From a virus (taxonomy: Duplodnaviria; Heunggongvirae; Uroviricota; Caudoviricetes): DNA of 4,237 bases. The stretch lies in IMG/VR virus record IMGVR_UViG_2778261639_000013, one strand, 5' to 3'. Positions 1-4,237 of this stretch are shown in pieces (the first letter of the stretch is position 1; each line of letters begins with the position of its first letter). The position numbers are program-made.

Positions 1-3000
1 GAAAAACGAGTATTTTTAGTCATTCTGTTTACCTCTTTCTCAGGGAGTTTAGTCTCCAGGATTCCCGGGGCGGTTCAGACTGGAGATTTATTGCTTCGGT
101 CTTGTGTGCTTTCGGAATGGCATCAGACATAAGTCCGATTACCTTCCAACGAAACGCTCCAGAAATAAACGCAAGCCAATCCCAAAAGAATCTGACGTAA
201 AAACCTTCAACTACACGGCTCACCTGTGGGATATCCGGTGGCTAAGACATTGTGCGAGGAAAACAAGGTGATTGACCAAAATCGAAGTTACGAACAAGAA
301 AGCGTCGAGCGAGCTTTAACGTGCGCTAACTGCGGTCAGAAGCTGCATGTGCTGGAAGTTCACGTGTGTGAGCACTGCTGCGCAGAGCTGATGAGCGATT
401 CGAATAGCTCGATGCACGAGGAAGAAGATGATGGCTAAACCAGCGCGAAGACGATGTAAAAACGATGAATGTCGGGAATGGTTTCACCCTGCATTCGCTA
501 ATCAGTGGTGGTGCTCTCCAGAGTGTGGAACCAAGATAGCACTCGAACGACGAAGCAAAGAACGCGAAAAAGCGGAAAAGGCAGAAAAGGCAGCAGAGAA
601 GAAACGACGACGAGAGGAGCAGAAACAGAACGATAAACTTAAGATTCAAAAACTCGCCTTAAAGCCCCGCAGTTACTGGATTAAACAAGCCCAACAAGCC
701 GTAAACGCCTTCATCAGAGAAAGAGACCGCGACTTACCATGTATCTCGTGCGGAACGCTCACGTCTGCTCAGTGGGATGCCGGACATTACCGGACAACTG
801 CTGCGGCACCTCAACTCCGATTTGATGAACGCAATATTCACAAGCAATGCGTGGTGTGCAACCAGCACAAAAGCGGAAATCTCGTTCCGTATCGCGTCGA
901 ACTGATTAGCCGCATCGGGCAGGAAGCAGTAGAGGAAATCGAATCAAACCATAACCGCTATCGCTGGACTGTCGAAGAGTGCAGGGCCATCAAGGCGGAG
1001 TATCAACAGAAACTTAAAAAACTGCGAAACAGCAGAAGTGAGGTTGCATGAATATCTACGAAAGAATTGATGGCAGCAAATACCGAAATATTTGGGTAGT
1101 TGGCGATCTGCACGGATGCTACACGAACCTGATGAAAAAACTGGAGACGATAGGATTCGACACCAAAAAAGACCTGCTTATCTCGGTGGGCGATTTGGTT
1201 GATCTCGGTACAGAGAACGTAGAATGCCTGGAATTAATCACATTCCCCTGGTTCATAGCTGTACGTGGAAACCATGAGCAAATGATGATTGATGGCTTAT
1301 CAGAGCGTGGAAACGTCAATCACTGGCTGCTTAATGGCGGTGGCTGGTTCTTTAATCTCGATTACGACAAAGAAATTCTGGCTAAAGCTCTTGCCCATAA
1401 AGCAGATGAACTTCCGTTAATCATCGAACTGGTGAGTAAAGGAAAAAAATATGTCATCTGCCACGCCGATTATCCTTGTGATAAATACGAGTTTGGAAAG
1501 CCAGTTGATCATCAGCAGGTAATCTGGAACCGCGAACGAATCAGCAACTCACAAGACGGGATCGTGAAAGAAATCAAAGGCGCGGACACGTTCATCTTTG
1601 GTCATACGCCAGCAGTGAAACCACTCAAATTTGCCAACCAGATGTATATCGATACTGGCGCAGTGTTCTGCGGAAACCTCACATTGATTCAGGTACAGGG
1701 AGAAGGCGCATGAGACTCGAAAGCGTAGCTAAATTTCATTCGCCAAAAAGCCCGATGATGAGCGACTCACTACTGGCCACAGTTTATTGGTTTTCGTAAC
1801 TGAGTCATTTTATTATTTTATTGCAACTTTTAATCTTTTATAGTGCGAAATAAATGGAGCTGGCATTCATTTCGCACTTTATGTTTTTGTTGGACTTATG
1901 TTATTTTGATTGAATTCAATTCAGTTAAAAAAAGAAGGTGATTGCTCCATTTATAAATGAATAGTCATCCCCTGTCTTGAATTCTGATGTTACTTTATTA
2001 AATGCTAGTGTGAAGGCTACAGGTGCATACCCAATTGTTGCGCCAACTTGATATTCATCAACAGTTTTGTTTAGCGATACTGTTGTTTGTTTCGTCTGTA
2101 TTGTTTTTCCTTCGAGAGTATAGTTGCGATTGACATCTCGTCTTTCCATACCTGCAAAAATCTTGTATTTGAATCCGCTTGTATCGGACATATGCATTAA
2201 ACCACGGGGAGCCAGCAGACCAAAGCCATTATCCGAATTGAAGGTTTTATCATTACCAATGGCAATGGTTGCGCCATATGCTACATATTGAAATAAGTTT
2301 CCAGTAACAGCAGAAACTTCAGGGTATAATCCAACATTAGCACCTAAAATATCCATACTTGGTGTCATGGATAGCATCCCTTTTACAGTATAACCGTAGC
2401 GATTCTCTATTTGATCATCCCATGCATGATATTTTTCTGCCCCAATAATCTCATGAGCTTTATTTTGTACTTTCTGACCGCCTGCGTCGGGGCCAACAAC
2501 ACCTATGTCAGTACCTAATCGATAGCGAATCCAGTCATTCGCAAGGGAGTTCCATTCAATACCAGTGTGAGTGTATGCACTAAAAGCTCTGTCTCCAGTT
2601 ACAGCTGTGTTGTGTCTTTTATTACTGCCTGATGGAGAGTAAATATCTTGCGCAATATGGAGAGATAATTGGCTCGAGTCTGAGATATCGTGGCTATATC
2701 CCAGAAATAAGCCTTGTGAGTAATCATCTCTGTTTTCATGTTTATTGCCATAAATATCATTAAGTATTGGTTGAAACTTCCCTGCATCATCATTTGCTAA
2801 TGATAATGCAAGGCTGTTCGCGATAGCTGAACACGTGGTAAATGACAGAGCAATAAAGACGCCAGCGATGACACTTTTTTTCATATGTTATTGTCTTCCT
2901 TTTTTTTGAATGGTGCGCGTATTTTACATACATGAGTTTGTAATACAAGGTGCGTAATCAATATGATGTTTTATAATTGCGTGAGACAATTGATTTATTC

Positions 3001-4237
3001 GTTTTTTATTGTGGTTTTTATTATCTTTTAATGTAACGGTGTTTTTATTAAGTGTGTTTGCGTGGTGTTTTATGTTTTTTATAATTTTTATTTTATTAAA
3101 TTTAAAAGCATTAGTAATGGCTATTCTATATAGCAATATAAGAACTGTTACAAAAAAGGGGGGCAATTACAGGTAGTTATGGATGATGAGTGAAACAGAT
3201 ATTGGAGAACCGGGGAATGAATGATGTCTGAGTCTTATATATCAGAACTCCTTCGCTGTCGCTGGGGGCTCCTGTGCTTATGTCGTTTCCCCGATTCGGT
3301 TTTGAACGATTACCGAATGTTGAAGAATTATGCCAAAATATAGAAAGGATTTACTGCATGAATACCCAATATTTACAGTATGTTCGTGAGCAACTTATGG
3401 CAGCTACTGCTGACTTGAACGGAGCAACGAAAGGCCAGCTCGAAGCCTGGCAGGAGCATGCACAATTTGATACTGGTACATACAAACGAAAGAAGCCGCG
3501 CATTCTGGATGTGGTAACTGGCAAGATGATTACGCTGGATAATACGCCGACTTCCGGTAAGCAGTCGTACGCAAAAGGTTCATCCATTGCTTTGGTCAGC
3601 CCGGTTGAATTCTCAACCTCTTCATGGCGCCGCGCGGTTTTGTCTCTCGATGAACATCAGAAAGCATGGTTGCTTTGGTGTTACAGCGAAAGCGTTCGAT
3701 GGGGGCATCAGGTCACCATAACGCAATGGGCATGGAGCGAGTTTAAAGATTTGTTAAGTAACAGAAAAATTGCAGGTAAGACACTGGATCGCCTGAAGAC
3801 GTTAATCTGGCTGGCTGCACAGGATGTGAAGAGCGAACTTGCAGGGCGTGAGGCCTATGAATACCAGACACTGGCATCATTGGTGGGAGTGACAACAAAA
3901 AACTGGTCCGAGACATTTACTGAACGCTGGGTTGCAATGAAGCACATTTTTCTACAGCTTGATAGTGATGCTTTATTGCTTGTGACGAGAACACGTTCAA
4001 AACAAAAGGCAGCATTTTTACAGCAAAATATTGCAAAACTGGATTAAAAGCCATATACTTCATGCAAATTTGGTATGTTGTAAAAAATGTATAAACCCGC
4101 TGCCGAGTGGGTTTTTTTTATGCCCTGAGTTGTACTTGTACGGTAAACATGCTGGCTGCTATGTAATAGAGTTTTTTTAGCCTGTAACCTCTTGACGGCA
4201 TTGAATTGCTTTTGTTATGAGTTGTAAGCCAATGTTA

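What the first reader, a model, noticed from the sequence alone, without database searches (positions are those of the whole stretch)
2885..3357. AT-rich divergent control region with ambiguous Q start and a candidate 40-codon upstream ORF
The region between the lpxR and Q-like starts is extremely AT-rich with T/A tracts and an A6G6 homopolymer pair (3152-3163), suggesting a nucleoid-protein (H-NS-type) silencing target. Three possible Q starts exist: GTG 3274 and ATG 3280 in frame, and ATG 3358 with the best RBS. A separate-frame 40-codon ORF (3221-3343, MMSESYISELLRCRWGLLCLCRFPDSVLNDYRMLKNYAKI) ends 15 nt before ATG 3358 and could act as a leader ORF.
Basis: inference. Interest (0 to 1): 0.4.

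Follow-up and report, generated by a model that had tools for sequence, protein, structure and literature searches.

The report
lpxR upstream spacer, ylcG and Q start
This stretch is an already annotated junction in a phage 434-type prophage: the AT-rich upstream region of the lipid A deacylase gene lpxR, then a known small phage gene (ylcG), then a phage 82-type Q antiterminator that starts at ATG 3358; it is ordinary.

Summary

- **Source.** The window is the nin/Q region of a phage 434-type lambdoid. It is 98.5% identical to OL657226, and the 473-base stretch occurs once in 620 of 5426 complete E. coli genomes.
- **The 40-codon ORF.** It is not an unknown leader ORF. It is a YlcG-family gene (NCBIfam NF033498, 48 bits against a cut-off of 30; Pfam PF26818 on its relatives). 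RefSeq and the phage 434 record both annotate it.
- **YlcG family.** It evolves under purifying selection in its own frame. It lies directly upstream of Q genes from three unrelated Q families, usually with an ATGA stop/start overlap.
- **This allele.** It is a mosaic, truncated by CTG>TAG, so it ends 14 nt before the Q ATG.
- **Q start.** Q starts at ATG 3358. GTG 3274 and ATG 3280 lie inside ylcG in a frame that evolves neutrally, and they are absent from phage 82.
- **AT-rich spacer.** It belongs to the lpxR insertion. H-NS-type silencing is plausible, because EHEC lpxR is in the published Ler/Pch regulon, but it cannot be tested here.
- **Q-side promoter and A6G6.** No promoter for the Q side is supported. 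The A6G6 tract varies in length between strains.

The parts
1925..2884 (-). lpxR, lipid A 3'-O-deacylase gene. It is foreign cargo (a moron) in antisense orientation to the phage early-right operon.
   Evidence: Pfam PF09982 at 137 bits. phrog_2309 matches over the full length. Annotated in phage 434 and in RefSeq.
2885..3165 (.). AT-rich spacer (26.7% GC): the upstream and 5'-UTR region of lpxR. Its Shine-Dalgarno GGAAG is at 2899-2895 on the minus strand. It is the presumed site of the lpxR promoter or promoters and of H-NS/Ler action.
   Evidence: Composition. It is always single-copy and always linked to lpxR and ylcG-Q in 620 genomes. Against the E. albertii-type sister module, the core 2986-3130 is the least conserved block (75.7%) and the lpxR-proximal 2885-2985 is 89% identical. 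Indels that are not multiples of three rule out coding.
3152..3163 (.). A6G6 homopolymer pair: a length-polymorphic tract near the boundary between AT-rich insert DNA and the ylcG-proximal block.
   Evidence: Alleles seen are A6G6 (window), A7G6, A7G7 and A7G8 in E. coli, and A3G5 in the sister module. In 60 evenly sampled genomes out of 620, the 80-nt stretch around the tract is +0 nt in 1, +1 in 8, +2 in 44, +3 in 6 and +4 in 1.
3206..3220 (+). Remnant of the 3' end of an upstream nin gene (rusA-type), carrying the G-rich Shine-Dalgarno sequence for ylcG.
   Evidence: 12 of 15 nt are identical to the end of phage 82 rusA. Homology further upstream is marginal: 17 of 36 with a 1-nt shift, and a local alignment is not above shuffles.
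3221..3343 (+). ylcG, a YlcG-family small protein gene. It has 40 codons, or 39 from the second ATG at 3224. The allele is mosaic and C-terminally truncated.
   Evidence: NF033498 scores 48 bits against a cut-off of 30; phrog_2705 matches. RefSeq calls it 'YlcG family protein' and phage 434 calls it 'YlcG-like protein'. Family dN/dS is 0.05-0.16 in frame and about 1 off frame. TAG replaces CTG of phage 82 with no indel.
3274..3282 (+). GTG 3274 and ATG 3280: rejected alternative Q starts, lying inside ylcG in the +2 frame.
   Evidence: Phage 82 has GCG and ATA at these positions. Of 10 relatives, 9 have no in-frame start at these two positions; L029, L030 and L031 have a GTG 90 nt upstream of the Q ATG, 6 nt upstream of the 3274 position, and L014 a TTG at 93 nt. 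dN/dS in that frame is 0.8-0.9. The Q profiles start at 3358.
3344..3357 (+). ylcG-Q intergenic 14 nt, holding the Q Shine-Dalgarno sequence AAAGGA (3344-3349).
   Evidence: Read directly from the sequence. In relatives the same 14 nt are the last ylcG codons, ending in an ATGA overlap.
3358..4047 (+). Q antiterminator, phage 82 type, 229 aa.
   Evidence: PF06323 at 306 bits. 88.6% amino-acid identity to phage 82 Q over residues 1-229. Annotated from MNT... in phage 434 and RefSeq.
1710..1799 (+). Remnant of a lambda-type Q gene (29 codons). It marks the left junction of the lpxR-ylcG-Q82 replacement. Its ATG overlaps the NinI stop (ATGA).
   Evidence: Phage 434 annotates an 'antiterminator-like protein, N-terminal fragment'. 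RefSeq marks a partial antitermination pseudogene. Translation.

Best explanation
The 473-base stretch is a mosaic junction in a phage 434-type lambdoid prophage. It has three parts.

1. **2885 to about 3165.** This is the AT-rich upstream region of lpxR, a horizontally acquired lipid A deacylase gene that sits antisense between the lambda-type nin genes and Q. It holds the lpxR ribosome-binding site and presumably the lpxR promoter. It is the kind of DNA that H-NS coats and that Ler/Pch-type regulators open. This step is inferred from composition and from published regulation of EHEC lpxR.
2. **3221-3343.** This is ylcG, a known small gene that in lambdoid phages always lies directly in front of Q, usually with its stop overlapping the Q start (ATGA). 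In this allele a CTG>TAG change shortens the protein to 40 aa and leaves 14 nt before Q.
3. **From ATG 3358.** Q, phage 82 type, starts here and has its own Shine-Dalgarno sequence.

Q is most likely transcribed by read-through from the early rightward promoter, as in other lambdoids. This is inferred. It is most likely translated from its own site, perhaps helped by ribosomes that terminate at the ylcG stop just upstream. This is also inferred. ylcG additionally serves as a conserved stretch where nin and Q modules recombine. That is shown by the mosaic allele here and by the 434B/DLP12 crossover.
For: **Identity**
- 98.5% identity to phage 434 over window 140-4237, with matching annotation.
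- 620 of 5426 E. coli genomes carry the stretch once, annotated 'YlcG family protein'.

**ylcG is a real gene**
- NF033498 scores 48 bits against a cut-off of 30. PF26818 is on all 120 listed relatives; 202 clusters pass E <= 0.001, and every hit that carries an organism name is from Enterobacteriaceae.
- dN/dS is 0.05-0.16 between diverged members, with synonymous sites saturated. Off-frame values are about 0.8-2.1.

**Position of ylcG**
- In every locus examined ylcG is followed at once by a Q-position gene. These are PF06323, PF03589 or PF06530 Q genes, or in one case a gene with no Pfam hit. The upstream gene is rusA, ninG or an HNH gene.
- ATGA overlaps are common.
- A sister lpxR-spacer-ylcG-Q module from E. 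albertii and metagenomes has a full 46-aa ylcG overlapping Q.

**Q start**

**Mosaic allele**
- The 5' part is identical to the sister module. The middle is identical to an E. albertii rusA-ylcG allele. The tail carries 7 changes in 19 nt not seen in the four relatives aligned with it, all G/C to A/T.
- 434B homology ends at window 3338, inside ylcG. PMC9119081 describes replacement of Q and the lysis region by DLP12 DNA.

**lpxR regulation**
- PMC6393859 and PMC9263587 report Ler/Pch activation; PMC5122947 reports H-NS repression in Salmonella.
Against: - No H-NS or Ler occupancy data could be examined.
- The H-NS high-affinity 10-mer TCGATAAATT has no match with up to 2 mismatches in the spacer.
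- No lpxR transcription start is known to me, and the promoter-like hexamers in the spacer are not conserved.
- Read-through transcription to Q must pass a strong terminator-like hairpin at 1843-1878 and run antisense through lpxR. This is untested.
- This ylcG allele is the weakest-scoring member tested: 48 bits against 60-86. It differs at positions 17 and 19, which are Arg in the 17 loci compared and mostly Arg in the wider alignment, and it has lost the overlap with Q. It may therefore be losing function.
Confidence: 0.8

Rival explanations
1. True divergent control region. The AT-rich spacer holds back-to-back promoters for lpxR (leftward) and ylcG-Q (rightward). H-NS silencing and Ler counter-silencing would then co-regulate a virulence enzyme and the phage late-gene activator.
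For: - One promoter-like site lies on each strand in the spacer: plus strand 2938-2967 and minus strand 3151-3123.
- The 90 nt just upstream of ylcG (3131-3220) are about 96% identical to the sister module outside two indels. That is better conserved than the AT core.
Against: - Promoter-like hits are no more frequent than in shuffles (6 against 7.9 +/- 2.8).
- Both sites lose key bases in the sister module: TTGTAA>TTATAA, TATGAT>TATGGT and TAGAAT>TGGAAT.
- In other lambdoids ylcG-Q is simply the end of the nin operon, with overlapping reading frames.
Confidence: 0.15
2. ylcG acts mainly as a coupling or leader ORF. Its translation, rather than its product, would set how much Q is made and so the timing of late gene expression.
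For: - ATGA stop/start overlap with Q occurs in phage 82, mEp237, and the Kluyvera, Citrobacter and E. albertii loci.
- ylcG stays next to Q whatever the upstream gene and whatever the Q family.
- Lambda-type Q is likewise overlapped by the NinI stop, visible in the window at 1710-1713.
Against: - The amino-acid sequence is strongly conserved (dN/dS 0.05-0.16), so the product matters.
- In DLP12-type loci an 85-nt gap separates ylcG from Q.
- No structure sequesters the Q ribosome-binding site: z = -0.2, -0.57 and +0.59.
- In this window the overlap is gone and Q has its own Shine-Dalgarno sequence.
Confidence: 0.2
3. The ylcG allele in this window is a decaying remnant, carried along only because it lies between a recombination junction and Q.
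For: - It has the lowest family score: 48 bits against 60-86.
- It has a premature stop, and R17L and R19C at positions that are Arg in all 17 other loci compared; the wider 47-sequence alignment marks them as only 70-90% conserved.
- dN/dS against phage 82 is 0.50 for ylcG and 0.20 for Q over the same pair.
- The upstream partner gene is lost.
Against: - Counts are small: 12 non-synonymous and 6 synonymous changes.
- Four of the six unusual residues also occur in a full-length 46-aa allele, P0025.
- The truncation removes only the variable tail, which lies beyond the 41-position family model.
- The ORF is intact in all seven relatives aligned with the window (phage 434 and six E. coli prophages), with one SNP, and RefSeq annotates it in every listed row of the 620 genomes.
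Confidence: 0.2
4. Q carries a 26-28 residue N-terminal extension that starts at GTG 3274 or ATG 3280.
For: The Q frame is open for 126 nt upstream of ATG 3358, and a G5 run lies 5 nt before GTG 3274.
Against: - These start codons are absent from phage 82, and 9 of 10 relatives have no in-frame start at those positions.
- The frame evolves neutrally.
- The family profiles begin at 3358.
- All annotations use MNT....
Confidence: 0.03

Closest known systems
Phage 434 gp65-gp67 region (OL657226; Feiss et al. 2022, PMC9119081) and the matching prophage segment in EHEC/EPEC-type E. coli
   Same: The layout is the same at 98.5% identity: NinG, NinI, a lambda-Q fragment, lpxR on the minus strand, the AT-rich spacer, a 40-codon YlcG-like gene, and a Q82-like Q that starts at MNT. 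One E. coli genome is 99.8% identical over the finding.
   Different: Only SNPs and homopolymer lengths differ. The window has A6G6 and phage 434 has A7G6.
Phage 82 rus-orf45-Q (X92588) and E. coli K-12 DLP12 rusA-ylcG-quuD
   Same: A homologous small gene (orf45/ylcG) lies directly upstream of Q. Phage 82 Q is 88.6% identical and starts at the equivalent ATG.
   Different: - In those loci ylcG is 46 codons, follows rusA with an ATGA overlap, and in phage 82 overlaps the Q start.
- Here rusA is replaced by the lpxR insert and ylcG is cut to 40 codons, 14 nt short of Q.
- DLP12-type Q belongs to another family (PF06530) and lies 85 nt downstream.
E. albertii-type lpxR-ylcG-Q82 module (loci L029-L032)
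   Same: The gene order and the spacer are the same.
   Different: - ylcG is full-length at 46 aa, with an ATGA overlap to Q.
- The tract is A3G5.
- The AT core is only 75.7% identical.
- There is a 4-nt difference just before the ylcG ATG.
H-NS-silenced, Ler-activated horizontally acquired virulence promoters (LEE and non-LEE Ler regulon)
   Same: The upstream region of a foreign gene is strongly AT-rich. EHEC lpxR is reported to need Pch and Ler and to co-vary with LEE genes (PMC6393859, PMC9263587).
   Different: No binding data were examined here. No match to the H-NS high-affinity motif was found. The primary paper (Ogawa 2018) was not readable in the library.

Membership tests
YlcG family (NCBIfam NF033498 / Pfam PF26818) | Profile score above the curated cut-off | tested here: met
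   48 bits against a cut-off of 30, E 7e-13. This is lower than 7 relatives, which score 60-86 bits.
YlcG family (NCBIfam NF033498 / Pfam PF26818) | Lies at the end of the nin region, directly upstream of the Q gene | tested here: met
   True in the window and in every related locus examined.
YlcG family (NCBIfam NF033498 / Pfam PF26818) | Typical length of 43-46 aa with a C-terminal tail; stop overlaps the next start in Q82- and lambda-type contexts | tested here: not met
   The protein is 40 aa. TAG replaces CTG, leaving a 14-nt gap to Q. The conserved core, profile positions 3-38, is retained.
Q82-type antiterminator (Pfam PF06323) | Full-length profile match and close identity to phage 82 Q from the same start codon | tested here: met
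   306 bits over profile positions 1-216 of 220, beginning at residue 32 of the long form. The PHROG 304 profile begins at residue 29, which is ATG 3358. 88.6% identity over residues 1-229.
Q82-type antiterminator (Pfam PF06323) | Followed by a late promoter and a terminated short transcript on which Q acts | tested here: inconclusive
   A promoter-like site lies at 4031-4059 and an intrinsic terminator at 4093-4114. No Q-binding element could be tested.
Classical leader ORF / attenuator | Alternative RNA structures link ORF translation to expression of the downstream gene | tested here: not met
   Folding energies do not differ from shuffles: z = -0.20 for 3200-3420, -0.57 for 3300-3400 and +0.59 for the sister module.
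Classical leader ORF / attenuator | The peptide sequence is unimportant or carries only regulatory codons | tested here: not met
   The amino-acid sequence is under purifying selection (dN/dS 0.05-0.16). There are 5 invariant and 13 nearly invariant columns across 47 sequences.
Translationally coupled gene pair | Stop codon of the upstream gene overlaps or abuts the start of the downstream gene | tested here: inconclusive
   Relatives have ATGA overlaps. The window has a 14-nt gap that contains the Q Shine-Dalgarno sequence. Coupling by terminating ribosomes is possible but untested.
H-NS (xenogeneic) silencing target | AT content well above the surrounding genome, with A/T tracts and TpA steps | tested here: met
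   26.7% GC against about 46-47% in the flanks; a 33-nt A/T-only run; twice the TpA density.
H-NS (xenogeneic) silencing target | H-NS occupancy and de-repression in an hns mutant or by an antagonist | not testable with these tools
   Only indirect literature is available. EHEC lpxR needs Ler and Pch (PMC6393859, PMC9263587). Salmonella lpxR is listed as H-NS-repressed (PMC5122947).
H-NS (xenogeneic) silencing target | High-affinity nucleation motif TCGATAAATT | tested here: not met
   No match with up to 2 mismatches in the spacer. The whole window has 2 matches against 6.9 expected.
Phage moron | A non-essential gene of different composition inserted between conserved phage genes, absent from close relatives | tested here: met
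   Phage 2B8 and lambda match the nin genes and/or Q but lack 1780-3200. GC is lower. Remnants of a lambda-type Q and of a rusA-type 3' end flank the insert.

The most novel reading that the evidence does not exclude
ylcG may be a general dosage and timing device for Q, through translational coupling, and at the same time the crossover point for Q modules in enterobacterial lambdoid phages. In the lpxR-carrying lineage found in EHEC-type strains, that coupling would have been broken by the CTG>TAG change and the A/T-enriched Q ribosome-binding site. The variable A(n)G(m) tract and the H-NS/Ler-controlled spacer would then tie Q or lpxR expression to the virulence regulon.
Probability: 0.1. Interest if true: 0.45.

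Novelty: already known. Interest (0 to 1): 0.15.

Why it matters
The finding matters little in itself. The genes, the Q start and the YlcG identity are already in public annotation. The regulation of lpxR by H-NS antagonists is already published for EHEC.

Two points may be useful to specialists.

- The comparative picture shows that ylcG tracks Q across three unrelated Q families and acts as a recombination seam. YlcG still has no known function.
- The spacer places a Ler-regulated virulence gene head-on against the transcription path that must reach the late-gene activator of a prophage common in LEE-positive E. coli.

Both are leads for experiments and neither is a discovery.

Tried and rejected
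- **Known RNA families.** An Rfam scan found nothing in 2885-3357. The only match is a weak sub-threshold STnc240 hit at 4054-4123.
- **RNA structure around the Q ribosome-binding site and the lpxR 5' UTR.** Folding is not different from shuffles.
- **MITE-like element.** The spacer is flanked by a 20-nt, 80% inverted repeat at 2886-2905 and 3152-3171. This idea was rejected because the spacer is single-copy in all 620 genomes and always in the same context.
- **Coding potential of the spacer ORFs** (2924-3166 on the minus strand, 3009-3176 on the plus strand). Rejected, because strains differ by indels of 1, 2 and 4 nt.
- **A long rusA remnant upstream of ylcG.** Only the last 15 nt or so are convincingly homologous.
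- **H-NS 10-mer motif.** Absent.
- **YlcG structure and function.** AlphaFold2 gives a two-helix hairpin (helices 4-20 and 24-39, mean pLDDT 77). There is no Foldseek match in the PDB. The only sequence similarity to solved structures is a non-significant ungapped match to helices 2-3 of the ETS domain (E 0.38). No solved structure exists for Q82-type proteins.
- **Programmed -1 frameshift from ylcG into Q.** The Q frame is open across ylcG, and a formal T_TTC_CCC heptamer lies at 3288-3294. The heptamer is not conserved; mEp237 has C_TTT_CCC. The Q-frame overlap evolves neutrally.
- **Primary papers.** Ogawa 2018 and Hemm 2008 are not held in the library.
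Full report
**What the window is**

The window is the nin/Q region of a lambdoid phage of the 434 type. Phage 434 (OL657226) matches window 140-4237 at 98.5% identity.

The phage 434 annotation, moved onto window coordinates, reads as follows.
- NinG, 428-1051.
- NinI phosphatase, 1048-1713.
- A 29-codon fragment of a lambda-type Q, 1710-1799.
- lpxR, 1925-2884, minus strand.
- A 'YlcG-like protein', 3221-3343.
- A 'Q82-like' antiterminator from ATG 3358.

The 473-base stretch of the finding occurs exactly once in 620 of 5426 complete E. coli genomes, at 97.7-99.8% identity in the listed sample. 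RefSeq annotates a 'YlcG family protein' in it. Many of these genomes are O157:H7, O111, O145 or O55:H7.

**The observation**

- GC is 26.7% over 2885-3165 and 23.4% over 2950-3150. The nin genes are at 47.1% and Q at 46.1%.
- The spacer has a 33-nt run of A/T only (3075-3107), many T5-T8 tracts, and twice the TpA density of the rest of the window.
- A6G6 is at 3152-3163.

**The small ORF**

The ORF matches NCBIfam NF033498 (YlcG_phage_expr) at 48 bits against a cut-off of 30. It also matches phrog_2705.

A profile search found 202 protein clusters with E <= 0.001. The 120 listed all carry Pfam PF26818, and every hit that carries an organism name is from Enterobacteriaceae.

The family is protein-coding in this frame.
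- Between diverged members, dN/dS is 0.05-0.16 with synonymous sites saturated.
- The same DNA read in the other two frames gives about 0.8-2.1.
- Across 47 sequences, 5 columns are invariant and 13 nearly invariant.

For the K-12 gene, a recent paper treats rusA-ylcG as one operon. It cites Hemm et al. [quoted passage not shown] I could not read Hemm 2008.

AlphaFold2 predicts a basic two-helix hairpin with mean pLDDT 77. It has no structural neighbour in the PDB. Its function remains unknown.

**Where ylcG sits**

I examined phage 82, mEp237, 4A7, ev207 and 1H12. I also examined 14 loci from Escherichia, Kluyvera, Citrobacter and Atlantibacter, and loci found through two E. albertii-type proteins.

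In all of them, the gene immediately downstream of ylcG is at the Q position. Those Q genes belong to three unrelated Pfam families.
- PF06323, phage 82 type.
- PF03589, lambda type.
- PF06530, Q21/QuuD type.

One locus has a 204-aa protein with no Pfam hit at that position.

The upstream gene varies: rusA, ninG or an HNH nuclease.

In the PF06323 loci and most PF03589 loci, the ylcG stop overlaps the Q start as ATGA. In the DLP12-type loci the ATGA is still present, but it opens only an 8-codon ORF, and Q lies 85 nt further on.

ylcG is therefore the last gene of the nin operon and stays attached to Q. Because the three Q families are unrelated, a specific protein partnership with Q seems unlikely. 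This last point is inference.

**How this allele differs**

Aligned to phage 82 without any indel, the window reads AAA ATA TAG where phage 82 reads AAA ACA CTG. The ancestral ATGA is still present at 3358-3361. The protein is therefore cut from 46 to 40 residues, and 14 nt containing AAAGGA now separate it from the Q ATG.

A sister module from E. albertii and metagenomes (L029-L032) has the same layout: NinG, NinI, lpxR on the minus strand, spacer, ylcG, Q82. There ylcG is the full 46 codons and overlaps Q.

The window allele is a mosaic.
- The first 36 nt are identical to the sister module.
- The middle is identical to an E. albertii rusA-ylcG allele (P0025).
- The last 19 nt carry seven changes not seen in the four relatives aligned with them, all G/C to A/T.

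It is the lowest-scoring family member tested, at 48 bits against 60-86. It has Leu and Cys at positions 17 and 19. Both are Arg in the 17 other loci compared, though the wider alignment shows them as only mostly conserved.

Against phage 82, dN/dS is 0.50 for ylcG and 0.20 for Q. The counts are small: 12 non-synonymous and 6 synonymous changes. I cannot tell relaxed constraint from a functional variant.

**ylcG as a recombination seam**

The clear-plaque mutant 434B replaced Q, the late promoter and the lysis genes with DLP12 DNA (PMC9119081). Its homology to the window ends at 3338, inside ylcG. The GenBank note on the gene calls it the crossover point.

Together with the mosaic allele, this shows that ylcG acts as a conserved seam where nin and Q modules are exchanged.

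**The Q start**

- The PHROG 304 profile begins at residue 29 of the 257-aa long form, which is ATG 3358. The Pfam PF06323 profile begins at residue 32.
- Phage 82 Q aligns over residues 1-229 from that ATG at 88.6% identity.
- GTG 3274 and ATG 3280 correspond to GCG and ATA in phage 82.
- Of 10 relatives, 9 have no in-frame start at these two positions. The three sister-module loci have a GTG 6 nt upstream of the 3274 position, and L014 has a TTG 9 nt upstream of it.
- The frame containing them evolves neutrally.

The ambiguity is resolved in favour of 3358.

**The AT-rich spacer**

The spacer belongs to the lpxR insertion. Phages that share the nin genes and/or Q, such as lambda and 2B8, lack roughly 1780-3200.

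- The left junction lies inside a lambda-type Q, about 20 codons in.
- On the right, only the last 15 nt or so before ylcG are clearly homologous to the end of rusA.

Against the sister module, conservation by block is as follows.

| Block | Identity |
|---|---|
| lpxR-proximal, 2885-2985 | 89.1% |
| AT core, 2986-3130 | 75.7%, with several indels |
| 3131-3220 | about 96% outside two indels |

Indels that are not multiples of three exclude coding in the spacer. Rfam finds no known RNA there.

Promoter-like hexamer pairs are no more common than in shuffled sequence: 6 found, 7.9 +/- 2.8 expected. The two in the spacer lose key bases in the sister module. I therefore cannot place the lpxR promoter, and I see no support for a dedicated ylcG-Q promoter.

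By eye, a candidate lpxR promoter on the minus strand is TTGTAT (2948-2943), 16 nt, TAAAAT (2926-2921). Both hexamers are conserved in the sister module, but the match is below the scanner's threshold and is untested.

**H-NS**

Composition fits a xenogeneic-silencing target. The H-NS high-affinity 10-mer is absent.

- Reviews and a transcriptome analysis state that EHEC lpxR requires Pch and Ler and co-varies with the LEE genes. They cite Ogawa et al. 2018 (PMC6393859, PMC9263587).
- lpxR is associated with LEE across strains (PMC6724679).
- In Salmonella, genome-wide data list lpxR as H-NS-repressed (PMC5122947).

Ler is an H-NS-family antagonist; this is established knowledge.

**The A6G6 tract**

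The tract is length-polymorphic.
- A6G6 in the window.
- A7G6 in phage 434.
- A7G7 in O157 SS17 and others.
- A7G8 in an O111 strain.
- A3G5 in the sister module.

In 60 evenly sampled genomes out of 620, the 80-nt stretch around the tract is longer than in the window by 0 nt in 1 genome, 1 nt in 8, 2 nt in 44, 3 nt in 6 and 4 nt in 1. Only 3 of the 620 genomes are at least 99% identical to the window over this 80-nt stretch.

Some of this variation may be homopolymer sequencing error. The tract is a mutable site and not a conserved signal.

**Most likely mechanism**

Shown:
- the gene identities;
- the Q start;
- the family membership of ylcG;
- its conserved adjacency to Q;
- the loss of the overlap in this allele;
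- the insert nature and composition of the spacer.

Inferred:
- lpxR is driven from the spacer and is held down by H-NS until Ler/Pch act;
- ylcG-Q is transcribed by read-through from the early rightward promoter. That transcription must pass a strong terminator-like hairpin at 1843-1878 (z = -3.4 on the plus strand, followed by a U-tract) and run antisense through lpxR;
- Q is translated from its own Shine-Dalgarno sequence, possibly helped by ribosomes terminating 14 nt upstream.

**Verdict**

The features are already annotated and ordinary.

Noticed in passing
window 3152-3163: The A(n)G(m) tract varies between strains: A6G6, A7G6, A7G7 and A7G8 in E. coli, and A3G5 in an E. albertii-type sister module. 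The window's allele is rare; only 3 of 620 genomes are at least 99% identical over the surrounding 80 nt. The variation could be real slippage or homopolymer sequencing error.
   Followed up: partly
window 1843-1878: A strong 15-bp hairpin (z = -3.4 on the plus strand, -4.1 on the minus strand) lies between the lambda-Q fragment and the 3' end of lpxR. On the plus strand it is followed by UUUAUGUUUUUGUU. It looks like a terminator that early rightward transcription must read through to reach ylcG-Q. The terminator scan missed it.
   Followed up: partly
window 1710-1799: A 29-codon remnant of a lambda-type Q gene whose ATG overlaps the NinI stop (ATGA). It marks the left junction where a lambda-type Q was replaced by the lpxR-ylcG-Q82 segment.
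   Followed up: partly
window 4031-4123: Just after Q there is a promoter-like site (TTGCAA, 17 nt, TATACT at 4031-4059) and an intrinsic terminator (4093-4114). This is the expected late promoter with its short terminated transcript. The region has a sub-threshold Rfam match to STnc240 (28 bits against a gathering score of 55, E 0.33).
   Followed up: no
window 3232-3357; loci L003, L012-L020, L029-L031: The Q reading frame is free of stop codons across almost all of ylcG in the Q82-type relatives. The probability is 3-14% under synonymous resampling, and the sequences are related to one another. A formal -1 slippery heptamer, T_TTC_CCC, lies at 3288-3294. The heptamer is not conserved, and that frame evolves neutrally, so I do not propose frameshifting.
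   Followed up: partly
window 3221-3343 (YlcG protein): Phage 82 YlcG has an ungapped but non-significant similarity (E 0.38) to helices 2-3 of the ETS domain of PU.1. The shared pattern is HRWG...LxNYxKT with the same spacing. AlphaFold2 predicts a two-helix hairpin, and Foldseek finds no PDB neighbour.
   Followed up: partly
window 2886-2905 and 3152-3171: A 20-nt inverted repeat, 80% complementary, pairs the lpxR ribosome-binding region with the A6G6 region 246 nt away. It would matter only if the lpxR transcript started beyond 3171. It is low-complexity sequence and probably a chance match.
   Followed up: no
L005-L009 (DLP12-type loci), just after ylcG: The ylcG stop still sits in an ATGA, which opens only an 8-codon ORF (MKSEITIN). 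The PF06530-type Q starts 85 nt later. This looks like a vestige of an earlier overlapping Q start.
   Followed up: no
L021 2644-3258 (Citrobacter meridianamericanus): A 204-aa protein occupies the Q position, overlapping the ylcG stop, and has no Pfam hit. It may be a further Q-like family.
   Followed up: no
window 3131-3220: Outside two indels, the 90 nt just upstream of ylcG are about 96% identical to the sister module. That is better conserved than the AT core (75.7%) and the 3' part of ylcG (80.5%). The reason is unknown.
   Followed up: no
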